DNA of 64,000 nt, taken from an uncultured Pseudomonadales bacterium (GTDB lineage Bacteria > Patescibacteriota > Microgenomatia > UBA1400 > PJMF01). The position numbers were made by a program, and so were the translations under genes. The notes under the pieces were generated by a model. It saw only the letters and a program-made list of their open reading frames with translations, was not told where the DNA came from and ran no database searches. The DNA lies in the NCBI GenBank assembly GCA_964607285.1, contig CAZSJW010000005.1, forward strand, positions 9,349 to 73,348, in the 5' to 3' direction. Positions 27,962-36,399 of the stretch are shown piece by piece; the stretch's first letter is position 1, and each line of letters starts with the position of its first letter.

Positions 27962-28645
27962 ATGCGCATCCTGGTTGTCGAAGACGAACATCGCATCGCG
28001 GCCGCACTCAAAAAAGGTTTTGAACTTGAACAGTTCGCAGTCGATGTAGCTCACACTGGTGCTGAAGGCTATGATTTAGCAACTTCGGAAAATTATGATG
28101 CTATATTGCTAGACCTGATGCTTCCAGAAATGGATGGCGTCACCATTTGCAAAAAACTGAGAGAAAAACGCATTCATACTCCTATACTCATTTTAACAGC
28201 TAGAGGACAGCTGGAAGACAAAATCTTAGGTTTAAACACTGGTGCTGACGATTACGTAACTAAACCATTTTCATTTGAAGAGTTACTTGCCCGAGTACGA
28301 GCACTGCTACGAAGACCACCGCAAACCCAAACTACTGTACTTAGCTTAGCAGATTTAGTCCTAAATCCTCAAGATTTTACGGTAAGCAGAGGTGACACAG
28401 CTATTAGCTTGTCCAGTAAGGAATTTGCTTTACTTGAATACCTGCTACGGCACAAAAACACTATACTCAGCAAGCAGCAACTCATAGACCATGTTTGGGA
28501 CTACGATGCTGATATTTTGCCAAATACTGTAGAGGTCTATATCAAAAATTTACGTACCAAGATTGATGCGCCGTTCCCAAATTCACCTTCACTACTACAG
28601 ACAGTACGTGGTTTTGGCTACAAGTTAGCGAAGGAGAAAGTCTAG
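27962..28645 (+). CDS. OmpR-family two-component response regulator
   Basis: Receiver domain (MRILVVEDE...LDLMLPEMDG...KPF) plus a C-terminal winged-helix trans_reg_C domain. Confidence 0.9.
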   Translation: MRILVVEDEHRIAAALKKGFELEQFAVDVAHTGAEGYDLATSENYDAILLDLMLPEMDGVTICKKLREKRIHTPILILTARGQLEDKILGLNTGADDYVTKPFSFEELLARVRALLRRPPQTQTTVLSLADLVLNPQDFTVSRGDTAISLSSKEFALLEYLLRHKNTILSKQQLIDHVWDYDADILPNTVEVYIKNLRTKIDAPFPNSPSLLQTVRGFGYKLAKEKV

Positions 28646-28651
28646 GAACCT

Positions 28652-29707
28652 ATGTTTCGCTCAGCTCGATTTCAACTAATGATCTGGTATGCATTCACTA
28701 TCATGATGGTAAGCGTGCTGTTTAGCCTGATCATTTACCGTGGAGCATCACAAGAAATTGACCGCTTCTCACAGTCTCAAAGAACTCGTATCCAACGCCA
28801 GCTACGGGAAAGCGAGCTACTACCTGCAGAAATTCGCAAAAATATTGTAATCCCTGTTCCGCTACTGGCTGACCCAGATTTAGCTGAAGAGACGAAAGTG
28901 CGTTTCGCTGTGCTGCTGATAATTTTAAACAGCAGCATTGTTTTTTTGGCAACCATATTTGGGTATTTGTTGGCAGGGAAAACGTTGGGTCCAATCCAAA
29001 CCATGATGTCAGAACAGCATAGATTTATTTCAGACGCCTCGCATGAGCTACGCACGCCACTCACTGCACTCAAAGCCTCACTAGAAGTAGGATTACGAGA
29101 TGCCAAGCTAAGTGCATCTGAGGCAAGAACACTGTTGGAAGAAAGTCTAACAGACGTACACAAATTACAAAAACTTTCCGATAATCTTCTACACTTAGCT
29201 CAGTACCGAAAACCCACTACTATAGAACAGTTTAGCGCAGTTTCAATTGAATCACTCATCAAGCAGGCTGTTAAAGCAGTTTCAGGGTTAGCCAAGAAAA
29301 AACATATTTCTATTGAACGCATGGTCGACCCAGGCACAATCTGGGGACAAGCTGAGAGTTTGCATGAACTGCTAGTTATTATTTTAGACAATGCTATCAA
29401 GTACAGTCCCGCCGAAACGAAGATAACTTGCTCTACCAAATCAAGCCGCAGCAAACTTATAATTACCATTTCAGACCAAGGTGAAGGGATTGCCCAGGTA
29501 GACCTTCCGCATGTCTTTGATAGATTCTATCGTGCTGATGCTGCTCGTCAGCATGATACAGCTGATGGGTACGGACTGGGTTTAGCCATCGCGAAAGAAA
29601 TTGTGAGCAGACATGGCGGTACAATTACAGCTGAAAGCAACCTTGGTACAGGAACTAGTATTCGCATTACACTGCCTGGTTATAAACTAGTAAAGTCACA
29701 TGCCTAG
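28652..29707 (+). CDS. two-component sensor histidine kinase
   Basis: Two N-terminal TM helices, the HisKA H-box SHELRTPLTALK, and HATPase N/G boxes (DNAIKYSP, GEGI, GLGLAIAKEIV). Confidence 0.9.
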   Translation: MFRSARFQLMIWYAFTIMMVSVLFSLIIYRGASQEIDRFSQSQRTRIQRQLRESELLPAEIRKNIVIPVPLLADPDLAEETKVRFAVLLIILNSSIVFLATIFGYLLAGKTLGPIQTMMSEQHRFISDASHELRTPLTALKASLEVGLRDAKLSASEARTLLEESLTDVHKLQKLSDNLLHLAQYRKPTTIEQFSAVSIESLIKQAVKAVSGLAKKKHISIERMVDPGTIWGQAESLHELLVIILDNAIKYSPAETKITCSTKSSRSKLIITISDQGEGIAQVDLPHVFDRFYRADAARQHDTADGYGLGLAIAKEIVSRHGGTITAESNLGTGTSIRITLPGYKLVKSHA

Positions 29708-29800
29708 TCAACACCTCTTTGGGAATCATATGAATGTGTCCACCATTAAGCTAAATTTCAGCTTTGACTCGTACAGTACACACTAAGAAAGGATGAGTTT

Positions 29801-30304
29801 ATGAACAGACACCTCATCATACCAGTACTCGCAGTTACAATCGCAGGAGCCACCGCTTTCGCGGCGAGCCAAGCATCCGCCCAAACAGCGGATGACACGC
29901 CAACTCGTTTGGTACAGCGAATCGCGCAACGCTTTAACCTCAGTGAATCTGATGTTCAAGTAGTGTTCAATGAAGCTCGGGCCGATCATAGAATCGAGAT
30001 GCAAGCTCGATTCGAAGAACGACTCAACGCTGCGGTAACTAATGGGAGTATTACACAAGAACAAAAACAAGCCATCATCACCAAACACACGGAACTCATG
30101 GCTGAACACGAAGCTGAGTATGAAGCTTTGAGGGATATGACCCCAGAGGAACGCAGGGCGCACCATGCATCTGAGCGCGCTGAGCTTGAAGCCTGGGCTG
30201 AGTCACAAAATATAGACCTTCAATTCTTTATGCCAATGGGCAGAAAAGGTGGCAACCATATGCGAGGCGCCTACGGCGCACCTGCTGAATTTAATAAGCA
30301 GTAA
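29801..30304 (+). CDS. secreted/periplasmic helical protein, possibly CpxP/Spy-like (LTXXQ-type)
   Basis: A signal peptide (MNRHLIIPVLAVTIAGATAFAASQASA) is followed by a helical, charged body with two xTxxQ/E motifs (ITQEQKQAI, MTPEERRAH) reminiscent of the CpxP/Spy LTXXQ repeats. It lies immediately downstream of the kinase and is preceded by the SD-like sequence aaaggatgag. Confidence 0.45.
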   Translation: MNRHLIIPVLAVTIAGATAFAASQASAQTADDTPTRLVQRIAQRFNLSESDVQVVFNEARADHRIEMQARFEERLNAAVTNGSITQEQKQAIITKHTELMAEHEAEYEALRDMTPEERRAHHASERAELEAWAESQNIDLQFFMPMGRKGGNHMRGAYGAPAEFNKQ

Positions 30305-30315
30305 AAATAACCCGC

Positions 30316-30334
30316 CTCCCACAAGAGGTGGGAG
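30316..30334 (+). other. perfect 7-bp stem-loop (CTCCCAC-AAGAG-GTGGGAG), not followed by a U tract
   Basis: Read directly from the sequence 12 nt after the stop codon of the preceding gene. Confidence 0.5.
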
Positions 30335-30353
30335 AAGCTGGACAGACACTAAA

Positions 30354-30383
30354 CCTCCTCATCGTACGTGGGGAGGTTTTTTT
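30354..30383 (+). terminator. intrinsic terminator (8-bp stem CCTCCTCA/TGGGGAGG, 7-nt loop, T7)
   Basis: The stem has one G-U wobble and is followed by ttttttt. It would terminate the TCS/LTXXQ transcript. Confidence 0.6.
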
Positions 30384-30441
30384 ATGAATGACAAAACATT
30401 CGTGCTTGCCAAAACATACTGTATGCGTATATACTCACGTC

Positions 30442-30468
30442 CTAGTGCCAACCACTAGATTTTTTTTT
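30442..30468 (+). terminator. intrinsic terminator-like hairpin (CTAGTG-CCAAC-CACTAG followed by AT then T8)
   Basis: Perfect 6-bp inverted repeat with a 5-nt loop followed by a T-rich run. Confidence 0.5.
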
Positions 30469-30532
30469 GCCAGTTTGACCAAAAAGCTTCTCCAAGACAA
30501 AATCGGAGACGCACAGTCGTTTAATTTCATTC

Positions 30533-30557
30533 CCCGCCAAAAGGCGGGATTTTTTTT
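30533..30557 (+). terminator. intrinsic terminator-like hairpin (CCCGCC-AAAA-GGCGGG followed by A then T8)
   Basis: GC-rich 6-bp stem, tetraloop and a T8 run, 66 nt upstream of the argG start. Confidence 0.6.
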
Positions 30558-30622
30558 GCAATTTTTGATTCACCCTTTTCCACCTGTACAAACCCCTCTC
30601 GGCTCCCAAAGGAAGCCACTGC

Positions 30623-32239
30623 ATGCAAACACTTCCCTACACTAAGGTATCCAACTACGAAGGCCGCAAGGGCGAAGTCAAGAAAGTAGTCCTTTTATAT
30701 TCCGGTGGGCTAGACACGTCAGTCATGCTCAAATGGATACAAGATGAGTACAACGCAGAGGTAGTTGCATTGACTATAGATATCGGCCAGCAAGCCGATG
30801 ACTTGGAAGCAATTCGCCAAAAAGCCATCAAGCTGGGTGCAGTCAAAGCAATGGTCATAGACGCTAAAAACGACTTTGCCTACAACTACATCGCCAAAGG
30901 TATCAAGGCCAACGCAAGTTATCAAGGTCGCTATCACCTGAGCACCCCTCTCGGCCGTCCGCTGCTCGCTAAACTGGCAGTCCAAGTCGCCCGCGAAGAG
31001 AACTGTGACTGTATCGCCCATGGCTGTACGGGTAAAGGCAACGATCAAGTTCGCATTGAGGGTTCTGTGCTGACATTAGCACCAGAGATGAAAATTATTG
31101 CCCCAGTTCGAGAGTGGAGTATGGGACGTGATGAAGAACTGGTATATGCAAAAAAACACAACATCCCCGTCAAACAAACCGTCGACTCGCCCTACTCCTA
31201 CGATGACAATATGTGGGGAGTGACTGGTGAGAGTGGTGAAATTGAGAATCCCACACTCATTCCTCCACTCGAAAAAATCTTGCAAGTTTGTAGCATTGTA
31301 GAAAAAACGCCCAACAAACCTGAGTATGTAAAAATTCAATTCATCAAAGGATTACCTGTTTCGGTCAACGACGAAGCCATGAATTTAACAGATCTGATTT
31401 TGCACCTCAATCTGGTAGGTGCCAAACACGGCGTGGGTGTCACCCATCACATTGAGGATCGCGTAGTCGGCCTCAAAGTCCGCGGTCTCTATGAAGCACC
31501 AGCTGCCGAAATCATCATCAATGCTCACTTCAACCTAGAAAAATACGTTTGTACCCGGGTTGAAAATGAGTTTAAATCAGAAGTGGACACCAAGTGGGCG
31601 TATCTCTGTTACGGCGCACTCTGGTATGAGCCGCTACTTGATGATCTGAATGCTCTGATTGATCATGTCAACGAAAAAGTCAGTGGTTTGGTTACAGTCA
31701 AACTGTTCAAGGGCGTTGCCGAAGTTGTGGCTGTGGAAACTGCCAACACAATTTTTGACGAAAAGCTGGCAACATTCATGAAAAACTCAGCCTTCAATCA
31801 AAACGCTTCACCAGGATTTATCGAAATTTACACTTTGCAAATGCGCATGGCACAGCACAAGGAACGGTTTGCACTCCTCACCATTGGCGAAGAGAAAAAT
31901 AAAAAGGCCTTCCTGCCTGTAGTAGAAGAACTCGTGAAACTTGGGTTCAAGTTTTATGCCACCGAGAACTCACATGCTTTTTACAAGCAGCATGGCATCG
32001 AGTCCGTGCTCCTGCACAAAATGTATGCCAAACAGGCGCCCAAACTTGAGGACGCGATGAAGCAGAATTTGTTTGATTTGGTGATAAACCTGCCATATGC
32101 CAAGCAAACTGACGAGTCTAAAAAAGACGAGGCTACTATTCGAAAATGGGCAGTGGCAAATGAAATTCCACTTATCACCGATTTACAGACAGCGCAAACG
32201 CTGGTTAGTAAGTTGCAGCAGCATATGATTGTGCGGTAA
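30623..32239 (+). CDS. argG: argininosuccinate synthase fused to a C-terminal MGS-like domain
   Basis: ArgG motifs VLLYSGGLDTSV, AHGCTGKGNDQVRIE and PVREWSM. An extra ~120-aa C-terminal domain (LLTIGEEKNKKAFLPVVEELVKLGFKFYATENSHAFYKQHGIESVLLHK...DLVINLPYAKQTD...) resembles the methylglyoxal-synthase-like allosteric domain at the C-terminus of CarB. Total length is 538 aa against ~400-450 for a classical ArgG. Confidence 0.85.
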   Translation: MQTLPYTKVSNYEGRKGEVKKVVLLYSGGLDTSVMLKWIQDEYNAEVVALTIDIGQQADDLEAIRQKAIKLGAVKAMVIDAKNDFAYNYIAKGIKANASYQGRYHLSTPLGRPLLAKLAVQVAREENCDCIAHGCTGKGNDQVRIEGSVLTLAPEMKIIAPVREWSMGRDEELVYAKKHNIPVKQTVDSPYSYDDNMWGVTGESGEIENPTLIPPLEKILQVCSIVEKTPNKPEYVKIQFIKGLPVSVNDEAMNLTDLILHLNLVGAKHGVGVTHHIEDRVVGLKVRGLYEAPAAEIIINAHFNLEKYVCTRVENEFKSEVDTKWAYLCYGALWYEPLLDDLNALIDHVNEKVSGLVTVKLFKGVAEVVAVETANTIFDEKLATFMKNSAFNQNASPGFIEIYTLQMRMAQHKERFALLTIGEEKNKKAFLPVVEELVKLGFKFYATENSHAFYKQHGIESVLLHKMYAKQAPKLEDAMKQNLFDLVINLPYAKQTDESKKDEATIRKWAVANEIPLITDLQTAQTLVSKLQQHMIVR

Positions 32240-32247
32240 GGAACCAT

Positions 32248-33219
32248 ATGCAAAACTGGGATTTGATAACACCTATTCTTGAGAACATCGAAAAAAAGGG
32301 CGGTTGGGTGAACACACACACTCACTTAGATCGAGCCTACACGATCACACCAGAAACACTTAAACATGCCAATGCGCCGCTAAAAGCTAAATGGGACTTG
32401 GTTGATGATTTAAAAAAACGTTCTAGTGTTGACCAAATTTATGATCGTATGGCGTATTCCTTAGAGCGTCAACTAGAGCAAGGGGTAACTGCACTCGGAA
32501 CCTTTATAGATGTCGACGAAGTCATTCAGGATAAAGCCATTCTAGCGGCTGATCGTTTACGGGAAAAGTACAAGGATGTTATTCAACTGAAGTTTTTAAA
32601 CCAAACACTCAAGGGAGTGCTTACCCCTGATGCTCGCGAATGGTTTGATCGTGGTGCAGAGTTTGTAGATATCATAGGTGGATTACCTGGCAAAGACCAA
32701 GGACATGAGGCGGAGCACTTTGATGTATTGCTTGGTACTGCAAAACGAATGGGAAAAATGGTACATGTGCACACAGATCAATTCAACGACCAAACTGAAA
32801 CTGAAACTGAGCTGTTAGCGCTAAAAACAATCGAACATGGTATGGAGGGAAAAACTTGTGTCATACATGGCGTTTCAGTTGCCGCCCACCCAATACAGTA
32901 TCGTCAAAAAGTATATACGTTGCTGAAAAAAGCCAAAGTTCAGTGGATTTGCTGCCCAACTGCCTACATTGATGCTCGTCGCAACGAAACTCTGACAGTG
33001 ACCCACAATTCTATTTCGCCTGTTGATGAGCTAGTGCCTGCTGGCATTAGTGTTGGCATAGGAACCGACAACATTGCAGATATCTATTTACCTTTTGGCA
33101 CAGGGAGTATGCTAGAAGAACTTTTACAATTGATTCGTTGTACTCGCATCTTTGATCCTGAATTGTTAGCAGCAATTGCAACGACAAATGGTAGAAAAAT
33201 TTTGGGAATTTCCGCATGA
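32248..33219 (+). CDS. amidohydrolase-superfamily protein, cytosine-deaminase (CodA)-like
   Basis: Conserved blocks align with CodA: NTHTHLDRAY (HxH metal site, cf. EPHIHLD), VHVHTDQFND (cf. VHCDEIDD), CVIHGVSVAAH (cf. VTASHTTAMH) and GIGTDNIADIYLPFGTGSMLEELL (cf. [23 protein letters not shown]). It lacks the N-terminal beta-sandwich and sits directly upstream of pyrD-pyrE. Confidence 0.55.
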   Translation: MQNWDLITPILENIEKKGGWVNTHTHLDRAYTITPETLKHANAPLKAKWDLVDDLKKRSSVDQIYDRMAYSLERQLEQGVTALGTFIDVDEVIQDKAILAADRLREKYKDVIQLKFLNQTLKGVLTPDAREWFDRGAEFVDIIGGLPGKDQGHEAEHFDVLLGTAKRMGKMVHVHTDQFNDQTETETELLALKTIEHGMEGKTCVIHGVSVAAHPIQYRQKVYTLLKKAKVQWICCPTAYIDARRNETLTVTHNSISPVDELVPAGISVGIGTDNIADIYLPFGTGSMLEELLQLIRCTRIFDPELLAAIATTNGRKILGISA

Positions 33220-34298
33220 ACCGACCCACACCGTTCTACGACCCAAGCAAGTCATACCAAGAAAACTACGATCAAGGTCCCTTTGGATTATTTGCAGAAG
33301 AAGCTTCTCCGTTCAAACGCCAAGGCAAACCCGAACACACGTTTCTTGGACACGCAGTCTTTCTGCCATTCGGTATCCCAGCAGGTCCGCTACTCAATGC
33401 AAAGTTTGTAACTGCAGCGTTCAAACAAGGGTTTGACATCTGTACCTACAAAACTGTTCGTACTCGCCCCCATCCCTGTCACCCCTGGCCGAATGTGTTG
33501 GCGGTGCATCCAGAGGGTAAACTCGTGGCGGATCGCCCTGAGCCACTAATTGCTGATCAAATATACGATGCCCCCGTTTCAATTACTAACTCATTTGGCG
33601 TACCTTCAGCCAACCCCGATATCTGGCAAGCAGACATGCAACTCGCCCTCAAATCTGCTGGCAAAGGTCAAGTGATGATCGGCAGTTTCCAAGCAACAAG
33701 CGATGGTTCGGGGTCTGTCAAACAGTATATCGATGACTTCGTAAATGCAGCCAAGCTCGTTACCGAAACGGGTGCCAAAATCCTGGAAGCAAACTTAAGT
33801 TGCCCCAACGAAGGATCTGCACACTTGCTTTGTTTTGATATCGAGCGAACCACACAAATCGCAGCCAACATCAAAGAAGCAATTGGCAACATTCCATTGA
33901 TCCTGAAAATTGCATACTTTGCCGAAGACAAACAGCTAGAAACCCTCGTCAAAAATCTCGCCCCAATAGTCGATGGATTCGCTGCAATCAACACCATTCC
34001 CGCAGCAATTGTTGATGCTACTGGCGAACAAGCCCTCCCTGGCCAAGGCCGTCTGCGCAGCGGAGTCTGTGGTTCGGCAATTCAGTGGGCAGGCTTGGAA
34101 ATGACCGAGCGACTCGTGGCGATGCGAGAAAATCTCAACTTGCAGTACACTGTAATAGGAGTGGGCGGGGTCACCACAGCTGAGGACTTTACTAGATACC
34201 GAGCAGCTGGAGCAGACGCAGTGCAAAGTGCCACTGGCGCTATGTGGAATCCTGATTTAGCACAAAATATTTGGAAAAAACAGAAAGAATCAGTATGA
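33216..34298 (+). CDS. pyrD: dihydroorotate dehydrogenase-family flavoprotein
   Basis: FGIPAGPLLNAKFV...TYKTVRTRP (substrate/FMN N-terminal block) and EANLSCPN (the NLSCPN active-site loop of DHOD/DHPD). It overlaps the upstream gene by 4 nt. Confidence 0.7.
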   Translation: MNRPTPFYDPSKSYQENYDQGPFGLFAEEASPFKRQGKPEHTFLGHAVFLPFGIPAGPLLNAKFVTAAFKQGFDICTYKTVRTRPHPCHPWPNVLAVHPEGKLVADRPEPLIADQIYDAPVSITNSFGVPSANPDIWQADMQLALKSAGKGQVMIGSFQATSDGSGSVKQYIDDFVNAAKLVTETGAKILEANLSCPNEGSAHLLCFDIERTTQIAANIKEAIGNIPLILKIAYFAEDKQLETLVKNLAPIVDGFAAINTIPAAIVDATGEQALPGQGRLRSGVCGSAIQWAGLEMTERLVAMRENLNLQYTVIGVGGVTTAEDFTRYRAAGADAVQSATGAMWNPDLAQNIWKKQKESV

Positions 34299-34951
34299 AC
34301 ACACAGTCAGTCATTGCCCAAGCACTTGTCGACATCGGTGCAGTCGGATTTGCCGTTGAGTCGCCAATAACTTTCAAATCTGGCATAGTGTCCCCTATTT
34401 ACATTGATAACCGTACATTCCCTGCACATCCCACCGAGTGGAAACTAGTTGTGCAAGGTTTTTCAAAGTTAATCACTGACAAGAAACTCAAGTACGACAT
34501 GATTGCAGGCATTGAAACAGCAGGTATTCCCCACAGTGCAGCTCTTGGATTAACCCTTATGAAGCCTTCAGTGTTTGTGCGAAAAACTGCCAAAGATCAT
34601 GGAACAAAAAAATTGGTTGAAGGTGGTTCGGTTGTAAGCAAAACAGTACTGCTTGTAGAAGATCACGTTTCTACTGGGCTTTCCAGCCTAGCAGGAGTTG
34701 CAGCACTCCGTGACTCTGGCGCAGTAGTTACTGACTGCCTATCTATCACAAGCTTCGAAATGCAAGAGGCCACTGAACAATTTGCTACTGCAAATGTAGA
34801 ACTGCATACATTGACAACAATTACCCATATAGTCCAGGCAGCAGTAACTTCCAAAGTGATTTCCTTATCAGATGCTACAATAATCAAAGAGTGGCTAGCA
34901 GATCCACATGGCTGGTTTGCCAAACGCTCAAAAAAGTCAGGCAATCTATGA
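34295..34951 (+). CDS. pyrE: orotate phosphoribosyltransferase-like type I PRTase
   Basis: PRPP-binding motif VLLVEDHVSTGLSS. ATGA overlap with the pyrD stop (ATG 34295-97, TGA 34296-98). The ORF track begins at an upstream TTG at 34271. Confidence 0.6.
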   Translation: MNTQSVIAQALVDIGAVGFAVESPITFKSGIVSPIYIDNRTFPAHPTEWKLVVQGFSKLITDKKLKYDMIAGIETAGIPHSAALGLTLMKPSVFVRKTAKDHGTKKLVEGGSVVSKTVLLVEDHVSTGLSSLAGVAALRDSGAVVTDCLSITSFEMQEATEQFATANVELHTLTTITHIVQAAVTSKVISLSDATIIKEWLADPHGWFAKRSKKSGNL

Positions 34952-36399
34952 TGCAACCGAACGACGTATATACAGCTGTATACAAAAACAACAATCTGTT
35001 CGGCCTCGAAAAAGCATCTAAAACTGATCTCTTCCATCCCAAACATCGCCGACAGAACTCAATCGCAGTGGTGGGTGGCGCACTAGGCGATGAAGGCAAG
35101 GGACGCCTAACTGACGAGCTTACCGCTCAATTTCTAAAAAAACATAAAAAAGTCATCCACTATCGTGATAACGGTGGATCGAACGCTGGACATACGGTTT
35201 CAGTCGGGAAAACCAAAATTGCGTTACACCAACTGGGATCGGGCATTCTACAACCAGGCTGTGTGGTGATACTCGGGAAAGAAATGGTGTTACACCCCAC
35301 TGATCTTGTTTCTGAGATCGAAGCAGTTGCAGCAGTTTCTCCTAAAAAAAACTTGCCCTCTGAACTACAAATAGATGAACAGGCATTCCTTTGCTTGGAT
35401 GTACATCGTGCATTTGAACAAGTACTTAAACAACACTCAACTGGCAGCTCTGGGGCAACAGGACGAGGCATAGCACCAGCGTATGCTGACGTACTATATC
35501 GGCATCCTCTTCGAGTGAGAGATTTGTTCGCTCGAAACTGGCAAGATCTGCTGCGCACCCATTACGAACTGTACAATCGGCTTGTGCAAGGCTTTGGCCA
35601 GAACCTTGCAGACATTTCAGTCCCACAGTTTATTGGGCAATCAATTGTAGTGGGAACAATAGAGAACCAAATTCAGCGACTGAAAACAGCAAAACTAATA
35701 CTAAAACCATACGTACAGAATGTGCGCATTTCACTCGATCAACTTTGGCGTTCAGACTGCCCCTTTGTCTTCGAGAAAGCACAAGCACTTGGTCTGGATA
35801 AACGATGGGGAGTATACCCAGATGTAACAGCGTCTAATTGTGGATTTGATGGCATTTTCTCTTCTACTGAAGGCGTGGTAGACCATCAAGACATTGCTGT
35901 CAGGGCGGCTGCTATCAAAGCTACTTATACCTCCAGTGTTGGTTCTCGCAAACTGCCCTCAATCATGGACGAAGCACTTGCGCATCGAATTCGCGAGGAC
36001 GCTAATGAATACGGTGCTACAACTAAACGGCCCCGAGATATCGTCCACATCGATATCCCCATGCTTTCCTACCTACTTGAAACTGGACGTGTTGAGTACC
36101 TGCTGCTCACACACCTTGATATTGCTTACCCAGACGTTCCAATACGCGTGTGCACAGAGTATAAAATCGGGACTCTCACGGTTCCATATCGCCCAGATCA
36201 AGCTTATCTGTCGCTAGTTGAACCTGTGTATATTGAAGTGCCTTCTTGGGACGGTGTAGCTGCACAGAACGCAACATCTCCCGCCGAACTTCCCCTGGCT
36301 GCCATACAGTATGTCGCTTTCCTCACCCAGTGTCTGGGAGTACCACCACTGTGGGCAACTACTGGTCCAAAACGTCACCAGACAGTGCGATGGTTTTAA
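34948..36399 (+). CDS. purA: adenylosuccinate synthetase
   Basis: P-loop IAVVGGALGDEGKGRLTDEL, LHQLGSGIL and the GTP/IMP-loop TGRGIAPAYAD. ATGA overlap with the pyrE stop. It has a ~35-aa N-terminal extension before the P-loop. Confidence 0.85.
   Translation: MMQPNDVYTAVYKNNNLFGLEKASKTDLFHPKHRRQNSIAVVGGALGDEGKGRLTDELTAQFLKKHKKVIHYRDNGGSNAGHTVSVGKTKIALHQLGSGILQPGCVVILGKEMVLHPTDLVSEIEAVAAVSPKKNLPSELQIDEQAFLCLDVHRAFEQVLKQHSTGSSGATGRGIAPAYADVLYRHPLRVRDLFARNWQDLLRTHYELYNRLVQGFGQNLADISVPQFIGQSIVVGTIENQIQRLKTAKLILKPYVQNVRISLDQLWRSDCPFVFEKAQALGLDKRWGVYPDVTASNCGFDGIFSSTEGVVDHQDIAVRAAAIKATYTSSVGSRKLPSIMDEALAHRIREDANEYGATTKRPRDIVHIDIPMLSYLLETGRVEYLLLTHLDIAYPDVPIRVCTEYKIGTLTVPYRPDQAYLSLVEPVYIEVPSWDGVAAQNATSPAELPLAAIQYVAFLTQCLGVPPLWATTGPKRHQTVRWF

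What the first reader, a model, noticed from the sequence alone, without database searches (positions are those of the whole stretch)
30316..30557. Four consecutive hairpins, three with U tracts, packed into 240 nt upstream of argG
After the stop of the LTXXQ-like gene come a perfect 7-bp hairpin (30316-34) and three terminator-like structures (30354-83, 30442-68, 30533-57). Each of the three ends in 7-9 T residues and they are spaced ~85-90 nt apart. One terminator is expected here, not three. The two ~90-nt units between them could be independent small RNAs or a staged attenuator controlling argG read-through. The first two hairpins share CCTCC/GGAGG cores. No Arg-rich leader peptide is present: the only short ORF reads MNDKTFVLAKTYCMRIYSRPSANH.
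Basis: seen in the sequence. Interest (0 to 1): 0.5.

Follow-up and report, generated by a model that had tools for sequence, protein, structure and literature searches.

The report
Translated attenuator leader upstream of argG
The four hairpins are two unrelated modules: the terminator of the upstream gene, and a conserved leader that seems to be translated and most likely controls read-through into a pyrimidine-type operon starting with argG, a known kind of ribosome-coupled control not yet described in these uncultured (Patescibacteria) bacteria.

Summary
All four hairpins and the three T runs are real and non-random: 3 of only 7 plus-strand terminator-like sites in 64 kb fall here. They are not one array. 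Hairpins 1-2 (30316-30383) are the 3' end of the CpxP/LTXXQ-like gene; in the closest relative they stay with that gene, separated from argG by an extra gene. Hairpins 3-4 belong to a leader with its own promoter (-35 at 30406, -10 at 30430). I found 28 copies of this leader in relatives, in front of argG, of upp+argG, of a DDAH-like gene+argG, and once of an unknown gene. It opens a 66-codon frame that runs through U9, the terminator and into argG. In relatives this frame is open (median 49 codons against 9 and 3). Its stop is never more than 12 nt before the last terminator. Some relatives leave only 24-40 nt between terminator and argG, so there is no room for a second promoter. Best reading: a ribosome-coupled attenuator like E. 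coli pyrBI, probably UTP-sensitive. No transcript, translation or ligand data exist. No Rfam family matches.

The parts
29801..30304 (+). Upstream gene: 167-aa CpxP/LTXXQ-like protein with a signal-peptide-like N terminus, downstream of a response regulator and a histidine kinase. Context only, not part of the leader.
   Evidence: ORF. Family hits are weak (Pfam; NCBIfam CpxP E 8e-4, below cut-off). 72% identical homologue in L001.
30316..30334 (+). Hairpin 1: 7-bp stem-loop 12 nt after the stop codon, with no U tract. It is a 3'-end structure of the upstream gene.
   Evidence: In L001 it follows the same gene with compensatory changes (CUCCCAC/GUGGGAG becomes CCUUUCGC/GCGAAAGG).
30351..30383 (+). 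Hairpin 2 plus T7: intrinsic terminator of the upstream gene.
   Evidence: 12 bp, -16.6 kcal/mol. Nearly identical in L001 directly after the homologous gene and about 1.1 kb away from argG.
30406..30435 (+). Promoter of the leader and argG operon: -35 TTGCCA (30406-30411), 18-nt spacer, -10 TATACT (30430-30435). The predicted start site is about 30441-30444.
   Evidence: 10 of 12 matches. In 28 of 28 family copies a TTG / 17-19 nt (17-18 in 27) / TAnAnT promoter ends exactly 9-10 nt before the GUG.
30442..30468 (+). Hairpin 3 (CUAGUG-CCAAC-CACUAG, 30442-30458) plus A and U9 (30460-30468). It is the 5'-terminal hairpin of the leader transcript. It contains the leader start codon in its left arm and is followed by a pure U run. 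Proposed roles: pause or early-termination site, and gate for start-codon access.
   Evidence: Conserved in relatives. All stem departures are G.U or compensatory (L106 copy 2 and L085).
30445..30645 (+). Leader ORF: GUG plus 65 codons plus stop (VPTTRFFFASLTKKLLQDKIGDAQSFNFIPRQKAGFFLQ...). It runs through U9 (Phe-Phe-Phe), the middle hairpin and terminator 4, and ends 23 nt inside argG.
30486..30512 (+). Middle hairpin (GC.UCUCC-loop-GGAGA.GC). A hairpin is present here in relatives, but its sequence varies.
   Evidence: relatives.
30520..30531 (+). U-rich stretch UUUAAUUUCAUU directly before terminator 4. Similar U-rich stretches occur in relatives. Candidate second UTP-sensitive slow zone.
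   Evidence: Sequence; relatives.
30533..30557 (+). Hairpin 4 (CCCGCC-AAAA-GGCGGG) plus A and U8: the attenuator, an intrinsic terminator inside the leader ORF, 65 nt before argG.
   Evidence: -13.1 kcal/mol. Present in 27 of 28 family copies with different, fully complementary stems.
30610..30615 (+). Shine-Dalgarno-like AGGAAG, 7 nt before the argG ATG.
   Evidence: Sequence.
30623..32239 (+). First structural gene: argininosuccinate synthase fused to a C-terminal MGS-like domain that resembles the allosteric domain of the carbamoyl-phosphate synthase large subunit. Next come the PRK06886 amidohydrolase, a DHODH-like gene, pyrE and purA.
   Evidence: cluster conservation.

Best explanation
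The region holds two modules. Module 1 (hairpins 1-2) is the 3' end and intrinsic terminator of the CpxP/LTXXQ-like gene.

Module 2 is the leader of the argG operon. Transcription starts at about 30441-30444, 6-9 nt after TATACT. The RNA begins with hairpin 3, whose left arm carries a GUG start codon only 2-4 nt from the 5' end, so the message is nearly leaderless.

A ribosome that initiates there translates a non-conserved peptide through the U9 run, the middle hairpin and terminator 4, as far as the argG start. If the ribosome follows RNA polymerase closely, it covers the left arm of hairpin 4. The terminator then cannot fold and the polymerase reads into argG, the amidohydrolase, the DHODH-like gene, pyrE and purA. 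If translation lags or does not start, hairpin 4 folds and transcription stops at 30550-30557.

The signal is most likely UTP, by analogy with E. coli pyrBI. This rests on the pure U8-9 runs, on the U-rich stretch before the attenuator, and on the pyrimidine character of the controlled genes. Low UTP slows the polymerase in the U stretches, so the ribosome can load and catch up.

Hairpin 3 plus U9 is proposed to do two things. It is a hairpin-stabilised pause or early terminator. It is also a kinetic gate: while the polymerase crawls through U9, the right arm is still inside the enzyme and the GUG is unpaired. With fast transcription the hairpin closes over the GUG.

Shown: the structures, the promoter, the conservation, the open frame, the stop-codon geometry and the gene content. 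Inferred: the start site, translation of the frame, coupling, UTP as the signal, and the role of hairpin 3.
For: 1. Modules are separable. In L001 (argG 93% identical) hairpins 1-2 follow the homologous upstream gene. A 276-aa gene then lies between them and the leader.

2. Promoter. There are 28 leader copies in relatives. All have TTG / 17-19 nt (17-18 in 27) / TAnAnT ending 9-10 nt before the GUG.

3. Linkage. The upstream neighbour varies. The leader always precedes argG, or upp+argG (L106; upp at 245 bits), or a DDAH-like gene+argG (L003), or once an unknown gene (L106 copy 2).

4. No second promoter. Only 24-40 nt separate the terminator from argG in L021, L023, L027, L002 and L018. No promoter-like site lies between 30557 and 30623.

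5. Open frame. The GUG frame has a median of 49 codons, against 9 and 3 in the other frames. Shuffles give a Fisher P of 2e-6. Downstream of the U run it is the longest open frame in 20 of 23 representatives, although the run length varies from 7 to 10.

6. Stop-codon geometry in the 28 family copies that have a downstream terminator (27 in relatives plus the window; L082 has none). The stop lies beyond the last terminator in 21, in its loop in 3, and 5-12 nt before the stem in 4. It is never further upstream. ATGA overlaps with the next gene occur in L023, L027 and L106.

7. Other clades. Clades without the CUAGUG hairpin keep a start codon at the same place and the same stop geometry. L015 has TACAAT-gaccg-AUGGUG and an ORF through two terminators. 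L014, L004, L046, L034, L054, L063 and L030 are further examples.

8. RNA-level selection on hairpin 3. All departures are G.U or compensatory: L011/12, L013, L020, L087, L085 with 3 G.U pairs, and L106 copy 2 with CCAAGUG/CACUUGG.

9. Published support. Ribosomes close to a terminator suppress it; the pyrBI attenuator lies inside its 135-bp leader gene and is governed by coupling (PMC4824070, PMC5021804). Leaderless AUG/GUG short ORFs act as attenuators in mycobacteria (bioRxiv 10.1101/834739).

10. Gene content. The cluster argG-MGS, amidohydrolase, DHODH-like and pyrE, with upp inside or next to it, is conserved.
Against: - There are no transcript ends, no ribosome data and no physiology for this organism. 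The start site is inferred only from the promoter.
- GUG with a 2-4 nt leader is an unusual start, and whether it works in Patescibacteria is unknown.
- The GUG is base-paired in hairpin 3.
- Single-sequence shuffle tests are weak (P 0.005-0.5 each). Significance comes from combining related, not fully independent, sequences.
- One of the two comparison frames is closed by conserved motifs (the TAG of CACUAG; the UGA in UUGACC), which inflates the frame contrast.
- No ribosome can shield hairpin 3 itself. Simple kinetics predict more, not less, termination at U9 when UTP is low, so its role is unsettled.
- The U run is lost in L025, L087 and L013, and terminator 4 is missing in L082.
- One Silvanigrellales leader (L042) has an ORF that stops 56 nt before the terminator.
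- The first gene is annotated as an arginine enzyme, so pyrimidine control is an inference from the neighbouring genes.
Confidence: 0.55

Rival explanations
1. Translation-independent attenuator. Hairpin 3 is the sensor, and the open frame is incidental. Hairpin 3 could be bound by a protein or a small ligand. Alternatively it could be made or not made depending on which nucleotide the transcript starts with. That would be NTP-sensitive start-site switching, as at E. coli pyrC/pyrD and upp/codBA. A C or U start gives the full hairpin and termination at U9. An A or G start gives no hairpin and read-through.
For: The stem sequence CUAGUG/CACUAG is almost invariant. The hairpin sits exactly at the predicted start site. 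Its stability collapses as the 5' end moves: -6.3, -5.9, -3.0, -1.6 and -0.5 kcal/mol for starts at 30441 to 30445. The order pyrimidine-pyrimidine-purine-purine (C-U-A-G) at the start site is conserved. The sequence G-A-U8-9-G resembles the E. coli upp initially transcribed region GATTTTTTTTG (PMC7039003).
Against: This does not explain why the GUG frame stays open for 26-124 codons, or why its stop tracks the last terminator and the next gene's start. It does not explain why clades without the hairpin keep a start codon at that place. The loop is free to vary and the middle region is unalignable, so there is no aptamer-like core. No Rfam family matches, and that includes the PyrR-binding site. 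Start-site switching could coexist with the main model.
Confidence: 0.17
2. Constitutive elements without a sensing role. Hairpin 3 plus U9 is a back-up terminator or insulator for transcription coming from upstream, and a 5' stem that stabilises the mRNA. Hairpin 4 is a leaky terminator that only sets the expression level.
For: Hairpin 3 lies downstream of a same-strand gene in the window and in L001, where no other terminator precedes the promoter. 5'-terminal stems are a general stabilising device (my own knowledge).
Against: The element is kept where the upstream gene is divergent, so nothing needs insulating (L003). Neither conservation of the stem sequence, nor the promoter register, nor the open frame is required for this role.
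Confidence: 0.1
3. One or two independent small RNA genes. These would be roughly 85-116-nt transcripts ending at U9 and U8 and acting in trans.
For: The stretch 30442-30557 has its own promoter and terminator. A roughly 116-nt terminated RNA (and perhaps a roughly 27-nt one) will be made whenever attenuation occurs. Attenuator-derived RNAs can act in trans in other bacteria (PMC6614838).
Against: Unit 1 (30384-30468) contains the promoter, not an RNA body. The body between the hairpins is not conserved in sequence. The element is always directly upstream of, and on the same strand as, the operon. Relatives leave no space for a separate argG promoter. No Rfam hit was found.
Confidence: 0.05
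4. DNA operator. The palindrome CTAGTG-N5-CACTAG overlapping the start site is the binding site of a dimeric repressor, for example one for arginine or pyrimidines.
For: It is a perfect 6+6 palindrome at +1 with strong sequence conservation. CTAG-containing palindromes are classical operators such as TrpR (my own knowledge).
Against: Substitutions in one arm are all of the kind that keeps plus-strand RNA pairing: C to U opposite G, and A to G opposite U. These break DNA symmetry. L085 has three such pairs. L106 copy 2 swaps a pair on both sides. L025 inserts a pair on both sides. The spacer varies from 4 to 5 nt.
Confidence: 0.05
5. Classical amino-acid attenuator that senses Phe (UUU codons) or Arg through ribosome stalling and an alternative antiterminator.
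For: The peptide contains FFF and FFL at the two U runs. The first gene is annotated argG.
Against: There are no tandem Arg codons. The Phe codons are simply the U tracts and fall in all three frames at the second run. No antiterminator pairing appears in the minimum-energy or centroid folds. The stop codons lie at or beyond the terminator, which is the occlusion geometry, not the trp/his geometry of more than 20 nt upstream (PMC4824070).
Confidence: 0.04

Closest known systems
E. coli pyrBI (pyrL) attenuator: UTP-sensitive, translation-coupled attenuation
   Same: An intrinsic terminator lies just before the first structural gene and inside a leader ORF. Read-through depends on a ribosome staying close behind RNA polymerase. 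U-rich stretches and a hairpin precede the attenuator. The controlled genes are pyrimidine-type. Sources: PMC5021804 and PMC4824070; the details of UTP-sensitive pausing are from my own knowledge of Turnbough's work.
   Different: There is no sequence homology. Here the ORF has no Shine-Dalgarno sequence, starts with GUG 2-4 nt from the predicted 5' end and sits inside a 5' hairpin. A first hairpin plus U9 comes only about 17 nt after the start site. The ORF usually runs on to, or overlaps, the start of the structural gene. The host phylum is Patescibacteria. UTP dependence is untested.
Leaderless polycysteine short ORFs of mycobacteria (Cys 'ribulon'), bioRxiv 10.1101/834739
   Same: A (near-)leaderless AUG/GUG short ORF is the first cistron of an operon and acts as a ribosome-dependent sensor. 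Several loci share the design.
   Different: Those ORFs sense an amino acid through a codon run and control an RBS-sequestering structure, so they act on translation. Here there is no codon run for a plausible effector, and the target is an intrinsic terminator.
E. coli upp-uraA, codBA and pyrC/pyrD: UTP- or CTP-sensitive start-site switching and reiterative transcription
   Same: A long T run lies close to the start site of pyrimidine genes. [quoted passage not shown] Stability of the 5' hairpin depends on the exact start nucleotide, as at pyrC.
   Different: The T run starts at about +19, not +2. Reiterative transcription at initiation is therefore not possible, and only elongation slippage would be. 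The pyrC hairpin blocks translation of the structural gene, not transcription.
trp/his leader pause hairpins (hairpin-stabilised pauses that synchronise ribosome and polymerase)
   Same: A short hairpin lies about 10-11 nt upstream of a U-to-G step, and in many members there is a G 10 nt before the last U. This is the geometry of hairpin-dependent and consensus pauses (my own knowledge). The hairpin lies in the leader ORF.
   Different: Here the hairpin contains the start codon itself and is followed by a full terminator-like U9. A ribosome probably cannot be fully loaded while the polymerase is still on the U run.
PyrR-dependent pyr attenuators of Gram-positive bacteria (Rfam PyrR binding site)
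   Same: Tandem attenuators precede pyrimidine genes, and a phosphoribosyltransferase-family gene lies in the operon.
   Different: There is no match to the PyrR-binding RNA even at E up to 10. The phosphoribosyltransferase here scores as PyrE. No anti-antiterminator architecture is present.

Membership tests
Intrinsic (Rho-independent) terminator | G+C-containing stem-loop directly followed by a U tract | tested here: met
   Hairpins 2, 3 and 4 meet it (energies). Hairpin 1 does not, because it has no T run. Hairpin 3 is weak at -6.3 kcal/mol.
pyrBI-type translation-coupled attenuator | Terminator immediately upstream of the structural gene, with no promoter in between | tested here: met
   65 nt in the window with no promoter-like site. 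24-40 nt in L021, L023, L027, L002 and L018.
pyrBI-type translation-coupled attenuator | Leader ORF that runs through, or ends at, the terminator so that a ribosome can occlude it | tested here: met
   Of the 28 family copies with a downstream terminator (27 in relatives plus the window; L082 has none), the stop is beyond the terminator in 21, in its loop in 3, and 5-12 nt before the stem in 4. Actual translation was not tested.
pyrBI-type translation-coupled attenuator | UTP-sensitive pausing upstream of the attenuator | not testable with these tools
   Sequence prerequisites are present: hairpin plus U9 at 30442-30468 and a U-rich stretch at 30520-30531. Pausing and UTP dependence need in vitro transcription.
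pyrBI-type translation-coupled attenuator | Controls pyrimidine nucleotide genes | tested here: inconclusive
   The operon holds pyrE (above the TIGR00336 cut-off), a DHODH-like gene (below cut-offs), a cytosine-deaminase-like amidohydrolase and purA. upp follows the leader in L106 and sits in the cluster in L010. However, the first gene scores as argininosuccinate synthase.
pyrBI-type translation-coupled attenuator | Homology to enterobacterial pyrL | tested here: not met
   No Rfam family matches at gathering thresholds in the window or in 15 relatives. An E up to 10 scan of the leader returned 8 matches, all far below their gathering scores and none to a leader or PyrR family. The peptide is not conserved. 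This is an analogue, not a homologue.
Classical amino-acid (trp/his/phe-type) attenuator | Tandem codons for the regulating amino acid in the leader peptide | tested here: not met
   There is no Arg run. The Phe codons are the U tracts and are not kept in frame at the second run.
Classical amino-acid (trp/his/phe-type) attenuator | Mutually exclusive antiterminator and terminator pairings | tested here: inconclusive
   None is seen in the minimum-energy or centroid folds. The middle region is too divergent to align for covariation.
Riboswitch | Conserved ligand-binding core (sequence and structure) upstream of the expression platform; a known family | tested here: not met
   Only the 17-nt hairpin, the U run and a CCA are conserved. 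The loop and the middle region vary. No Rfam match.
Independent small RNA gene | Own promoter and terminator, a conserved body, and genomic independence from the flanking gene | tested here: not met
   A promoter and terminator exist for 30442-30557. But the body is not conserved and the element is strictly linked to the downstream operon. Unit 1 is the promoter region.
Leaderless short-ORF attenuator | Start codon at or within a few nt of the transcript 5' end, with no Shine-Dalgarno sequence | tested here: inconclusive
   The GUG is 9-10 nt after the -10 in 28 of 28 copies. An AUG is 5 nt after the -10 in the L015 group. The start site is predicted, not mapped.
PyrR-binding attenuator | PyrR-binding stem-loop motif | tested here: not met
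   Not among the matches at E up to 10 in 29500-31200.

The most novel reading that the evidence does not exclude
This would be a nucleotide-sensing 'kinetic gate' not described before. A nearly leaderless GUG start codon is buried in a 5' pause hairpin that is followed by a pure U8-9 run. The speed of RNA polymerase through the run, set by UTP, would decide whether a ribosome captures the 5' end before the hairpin closes. Only then would the ribosome escort the polymerase through a terminator embedded in the same ORF. The element would define a small regulon (the argG-MGS operon, upp, and a DDAH-like gene) in Microgenomates-type Patescibacteria. That regulon would control a possibly carbamoyl-phosphate-independent route from arginine or citrulline to orotate.
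Probability: 0.25. Interest if true: 0.7.

Novelty: new variant of a known kind. Interest (0 to 1): 0.5.

Why it matters
Almost nothing is known about gene regulation in Patescibacteria (CPR), which are uncultured, have tiny genomes and carry few recognisable regulators. A conserved, protein-free, ribosome-coupled attenuator would be a concrete and testable example of how they regulate a biosynthetic operon.

It would also show that (near-)leaderless translation is used as a sensor outside Actinobacteria.

The leader flags its target operon (ArgG fused to a CPSase-type allosteric domain, an uncharacterised amidohydrolase, a DHODH-like enzyme, PyrE, and often Upp and a DDAH-like enzyme) as a co-regulated pyrimidine-type pathway. 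That pathway deserves biochemical study.

If the leader turns out to be only a leaky terminator array, the finding is ordinary.

Tried and rejected
- Rfam. The leader at E up to 10, the whole window at gathering thresholds and 15 relatives at gathering thresholds gave only sub-threshold chance matches and tRNAs.
- Exact look-up of the ArgG protein in the assembly index found nothing.
- Other copies in the window. A pattern search and covariance model R1 found only the copy at 30439-30477.
- ARG-box idea. The hairpin ATGAATG...CATTCGT at 30384-30403 has the wrong spacing for an ARG box and is absent from L001, so I dropped it.
- Promoter-like TTGACC-N17-CAAAAT inside the leader (30475-30503). 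The TTGACC arises from the U run plus GACC, and no -10 is conserved in relatives, so I rejected it as a promoter.
- Arg-rich leader peptide: none.
- Literature searches on the ArgG-MGS/pyrimidine cluster and on attenuators in Patescibacteria returned nothing relevant. The primary pyrBI paper (PMC282141) is not held.
- Covariation on hairpin 3 is limited because the stem is nearly invariant. Alignment A3 also contains two non-member hits: the L010 terminator and an L082 minus-strand hit.
- I did not try to align the middle region for a consensus structure, because it is unalignable.
Full report

| Hairpin | Coordinates | Stem | Energy | T run |
|---|---|---|---|---|
| 1 | 30316-30334 | 7 bp, perfect | -15 kcal/mol (MFE register 30311-30332) | none |
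| 2 | 30351-30379 | 12 bp | -16.6 kcal/mol | T7, 30377-30383 |
| 3 | 30442-30458 | 6 bp | -6.3 kcal/mol | A + T9, 30460-30468 |
| 4 | 30533-30548 | 6 bp | -13.1 kcal/mol | A + T8, 30550-30557 |

The spacer folds much better than shuffles (z = -4.2). Under a strict hairpin+T-run rule only 7 plus-strand sites exist in the 64-kb window, and 3 of them lie here (P about 0.0014 for uniform placement).

**Organism and relatives.** The ArgG protein retrieved 160 loci from genome and metagenome collections. The closest are Patescibacteria of the Microgenomates, Woesebacteria and Pacebacteria type; L001 is 93% identical. More distant ones include other Patescibacteria and Silvanigrellales (Bdellovibrionota). 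Window G+C is 43.6%.

**Two modules, not one array.** In L001 the homologue of the upstream gene is followed by the same two hairpins. Hairpin 1 there carries compensatory changes (CUCCCAC/GUGGGAG becomes CCUUUCGC/GCGAAAGG). Hairpin 2 is almost identical. A 276-aa gene then separates them from the argG leader. Hairpins 1-2 are therefore the 3' end and terminator of the upstream gene.

Hairpins 3-4 behave differently. CUAGUG-loop-CACUAG plus a U run, followed by a strong terminator, is found upstream of argG in many relatives whose upstream genes differ or are divergent. Covariance model R1 found 28 copies of the leader in relatives in 850 kb, plus two non-member hits, and a single copy in the window.

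**Promoter.** The scan found TTGCCA-18-TATACT at 30406-30435. In all 28 copies a TTG / 17-19 nt (17-18 in 27) / TAnAnT promoter ends exactly 9-10 nt before the GUG of CUAGUG. Hairpin 3 therefore lies at the very 5' end of a transcript.

No promoter-like site lies between hairpin 4 and argG. In L021, L023, L027, L002 and L018 only 24-40 nt are available. The operon must therefore be expressed by read-through of hairpin 4, which makes this a leader with an attenuator.

**What the leader controls.** The genes downstream of the leader in the window are:
- argG, fused to an MGS-like domain similar to the allosteric domain of carbamoyl-phosphate synthase;
- an uncharacterised cytosine-deaminase-like amidohydrolase (NF005365);
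- a DHODH-like protein;
- pyrE;
- purA.

The argG-amidohydrolase-DHODH-like-PRTase cluster is conserved across the 160 loci.

The same leader precedes upp+argG in L106 (upp at 245 bits) and a DDAH/arginine-dihydrolase-like gene+argG in L003. upp also sits inside the cluster in L010 and next to it in L083. DDAH-like genes flank argG in many loci. L106 holds a second copy in front of an unknown 297-aa gene. The targets look pyrimidine-related, with arginine or citrulline as a likely input.

**The missed leader ORF.** The GUG in the left arm of hairpin 3 (30445) opens a 66-codon frame, VPTTRFFFASLTKKLLQDKIGDAQSFNFIPRQKAGFFLQ... It passes through U9 (Phe-Phe-Phe), the middle hairpin and terminator 4, and stops at 30643-30645, inside argG.

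The frame statistics across the family are as follows.
- The GUG frame is open for a median of 49 codons (minimum 22). The other two frames have medians of 9 and 3.
- Dinucleotide shuffles of the downstream sequence give individually weak P values, but a combined P of 2e-6.
- Downstream of the U run the GUG frame is the longest open frame in 20 of 23 representatives, although the run length varies from 7 to 10 nt (P 1.6e-7 against one in three). One frame is often closed by the conserved UUGACC, so a fairer one-in-two null still gives about 2e-4 by my own calculation.

The stop-codon geometry is the strongest single point. Among the 28 family copies that have a downstream terminator (27 in relatives plus the window; L082 has none), the stop lies beyond the last terminator in 21, in its loop in 3, and 5-12 nt before its stem in 4. 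It is never further upstream. It often coincides with the next gene's start: ATGA overlaps in L023, L027 and L106, and +20 nt in seven loci including the window.

Window and L001 peptides align in frame, with two 3-nt indels.

Clades that lack the CUAGUG hairpin keep a start codon at the same distance from the -10 and the same geometry.
- L015 has TACAAT-gaccg-AUGGUG and an ORF through two terminators.
- L014 and L004 have UUGGUG, with a stop 1-2 nt before the stem.
- L046, L034, L054, L063 and L030 have short AUG ORFs that stop 9 nt before to 3 nt inside the stem.
- L048, L052, L085 and L028 have ORFs that run through the terminator.
- One exception, L042, stops 56 nt upstream.

**RNA-level selection on hairpin 3.** The six inner pairs are nearly invariant. 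All departures in true members are G.U or compensatory:
- L011/12: UACUAGG;
- L013 and L020: CGCUAG;
- L087: UGCUAG;
- L085: UUUGGUG/UACUAAG, with three G.U pairs;
- L025: an extra U-A pair inserted on both sides;
- L106 copy 2: CCAAGUG/CACUUGG.

The loop is free to vary (CCAAC, CCAGU, CAAGC, AAUUA, GCAA and others). This argues for a plus-strand RNA hairpin, against a DNA operator, and against loop-specific protein recognition.

**Mechanism.** A terminator inside an ORF works only if the ribosome is not close behind the polymerase. This is established for the E. coli pyrBI attenuator, which lies within its 135-bp leader gene. It is also shown by experiments in which a stop codon a few nt before a terminator lowers termination from about 90% to under 10%, with an effect out to about 27 nt (PMC4824070, PMC5021804). 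The geometry found here is the occlusion geometry, not the trp/his geometry.

I therefore read hairpin 4 as a ribosome-occluded attenuator of a leader ORF translated from a nearly leaderless GUG. Leaderless AUG/GUG short ORFs acting as attenuators are documented in mycobacteria (bioRxiv 10.1101/834739).

The likely signal is UTP. The arguments are the gene content, the pure U8-9 runs, and the U-rich stretch (30520-30531) before the attenuator. By my own knowledge of the pyrBI model, low UTP slows the polymerase so that the ribosome catches up.

Hairpin 3 plus U9 cannot itself be shielded by a ribosome. Its hairpin base lies 10-11 nt from the last U and is followed by G. That is pause-like geometry (my own knowledge), and it is also a weak terminator.

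I propose that hairpin 3 plus U9 works as a pause and as a kinetic gate for access to the GUG. This step is inference, and its direction of regulation is not obvious.

An alternative or additional device is start-site switching. Hairpin stability falls from -6.3 to -0.5 kcal/mol as the 5' end moves from 30441 to 30445. The E. coli upp initially transcribed region GATTTTTTTTG (PMC7039003) resembles the G-A-U9-G found here, although here the run lies at about +19.

**Comparison with known families.** No Rfam family matches. There is no PyrR site, no riboswitch-like conserved core, no Arg codon run and no visible antiterminator. The element works like pyrBI/pyrL but is not homologous to it. It differs in four respects: the near-leaderless GUG start inside a 5' hairpin, an additional start-proximal hairpin plus U9, an ORF that reaches the structural gene, and the host phylum. 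I rate it a new variant of a known kind.

**Limits.** Everything beyond sequence, structure prediction and comparative statistics is inferred. There is no start-site mapping, no evidence of translation and no physiology. The representatives used in the statistics are related, although their middle regions are unalignable. GUG initiation with a 2-4 nt leader in these bacteria is unproven.

Noticed in passing
window 30623-36399 (argG-MGS 30623-32239; amidohydrolase 32248-33219; DHODH-like 33216-34298; pyrE 34271-34951; purA 34891-36399): Argininosuccinate synthase is fused to a C-terminal MGS-like domain that resembles the allosteric domain of the carbamoyl-phosphate synthase large subunit. It is always followed by an uncharacterised cytosine-deaminase-like amidohydrolase (NF005365/PRK06886), a DHODH-like protein and pyrE. 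The cluster is conserved from Patescibacteria to Silvanigrellales, often with upp or a DDAH/arginine-dihydrolase-like gene. It may be a carbamoyl-phosphate-independent route from arginine or citrulline to orotate. I found nothing on it in the held literature.
   Followed up: partly
L106 228-340 and 1611-1712: One contig carries two copies of the leader. One lies before an unknown 297-aa gene; its hairpin is CCAAGUG/CACUUGG, a two-sided compensatory change, and its leader ORF stops 5 nt before the terminator. The other lies before upp, followed by argG. This suggests a small regulon.
   Followed up: partly
L052, L063, L042, L038 (Silvanigrellales) and L030, L034, L046, L048, L054 (AT-rich Patescibacteria), the 100-180 nt upstream of argG: Other phyla and classes have non-homologous leaders of the same design: a strong TTGACA-type promoter, a short AUG ORF with no Shine-Dalgarno sequence that is rich in U-run codons, and a terminator overlapped by or adjacent to the ORF end. 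In L052 the ORF runs through the terminator and stops 3 nt before the argG ATG. L042 is an exception.
   Followed up: partly
window 30468-30476 and the equivalent position in relatives: A near-universal (G/A)(A/C)CCA follows the U run. In about half of the members the +1 frame meets UGA immediately after the run (UUUUGACC). A one-nucleotide change in U-run length, by transcriptional slippage on U8-9, would therefore end leader translation at once. This could be a second way of reading UTP. It is untested.
   Followed up: no
window 27962-30304: An OmpR-type response regulator, a histidine kinase and a small secreted helical protein with a weak CpxP/LTXXQ resemblance form a Cpx-like envelope-stress module. 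The module ends in a two-hairpin 3' structure that is conserved, with compensatory changes, in L001.
   Followed up: partly
window 34891-36399: The purA ORF as listed (502 aa, GTG start) overlaps pyrE by 61 nt, and the Pfam match begins only at residue 59. The true start is probably an internal codon.
   Followed up: no
L003 3160-3978; L059, L041, L150 upstream of argG; L075, L146, L147, L154, L078, L069 and others downstream of argG: A DDAH/arginine-dihydrolase-like gene (NF045659, 266 bits) is repeatedly adjacent to argG-MGS. In L003 it lies between the leader and argG. This fits arginine as the feedstock of the pathway.
   Followed up: partly
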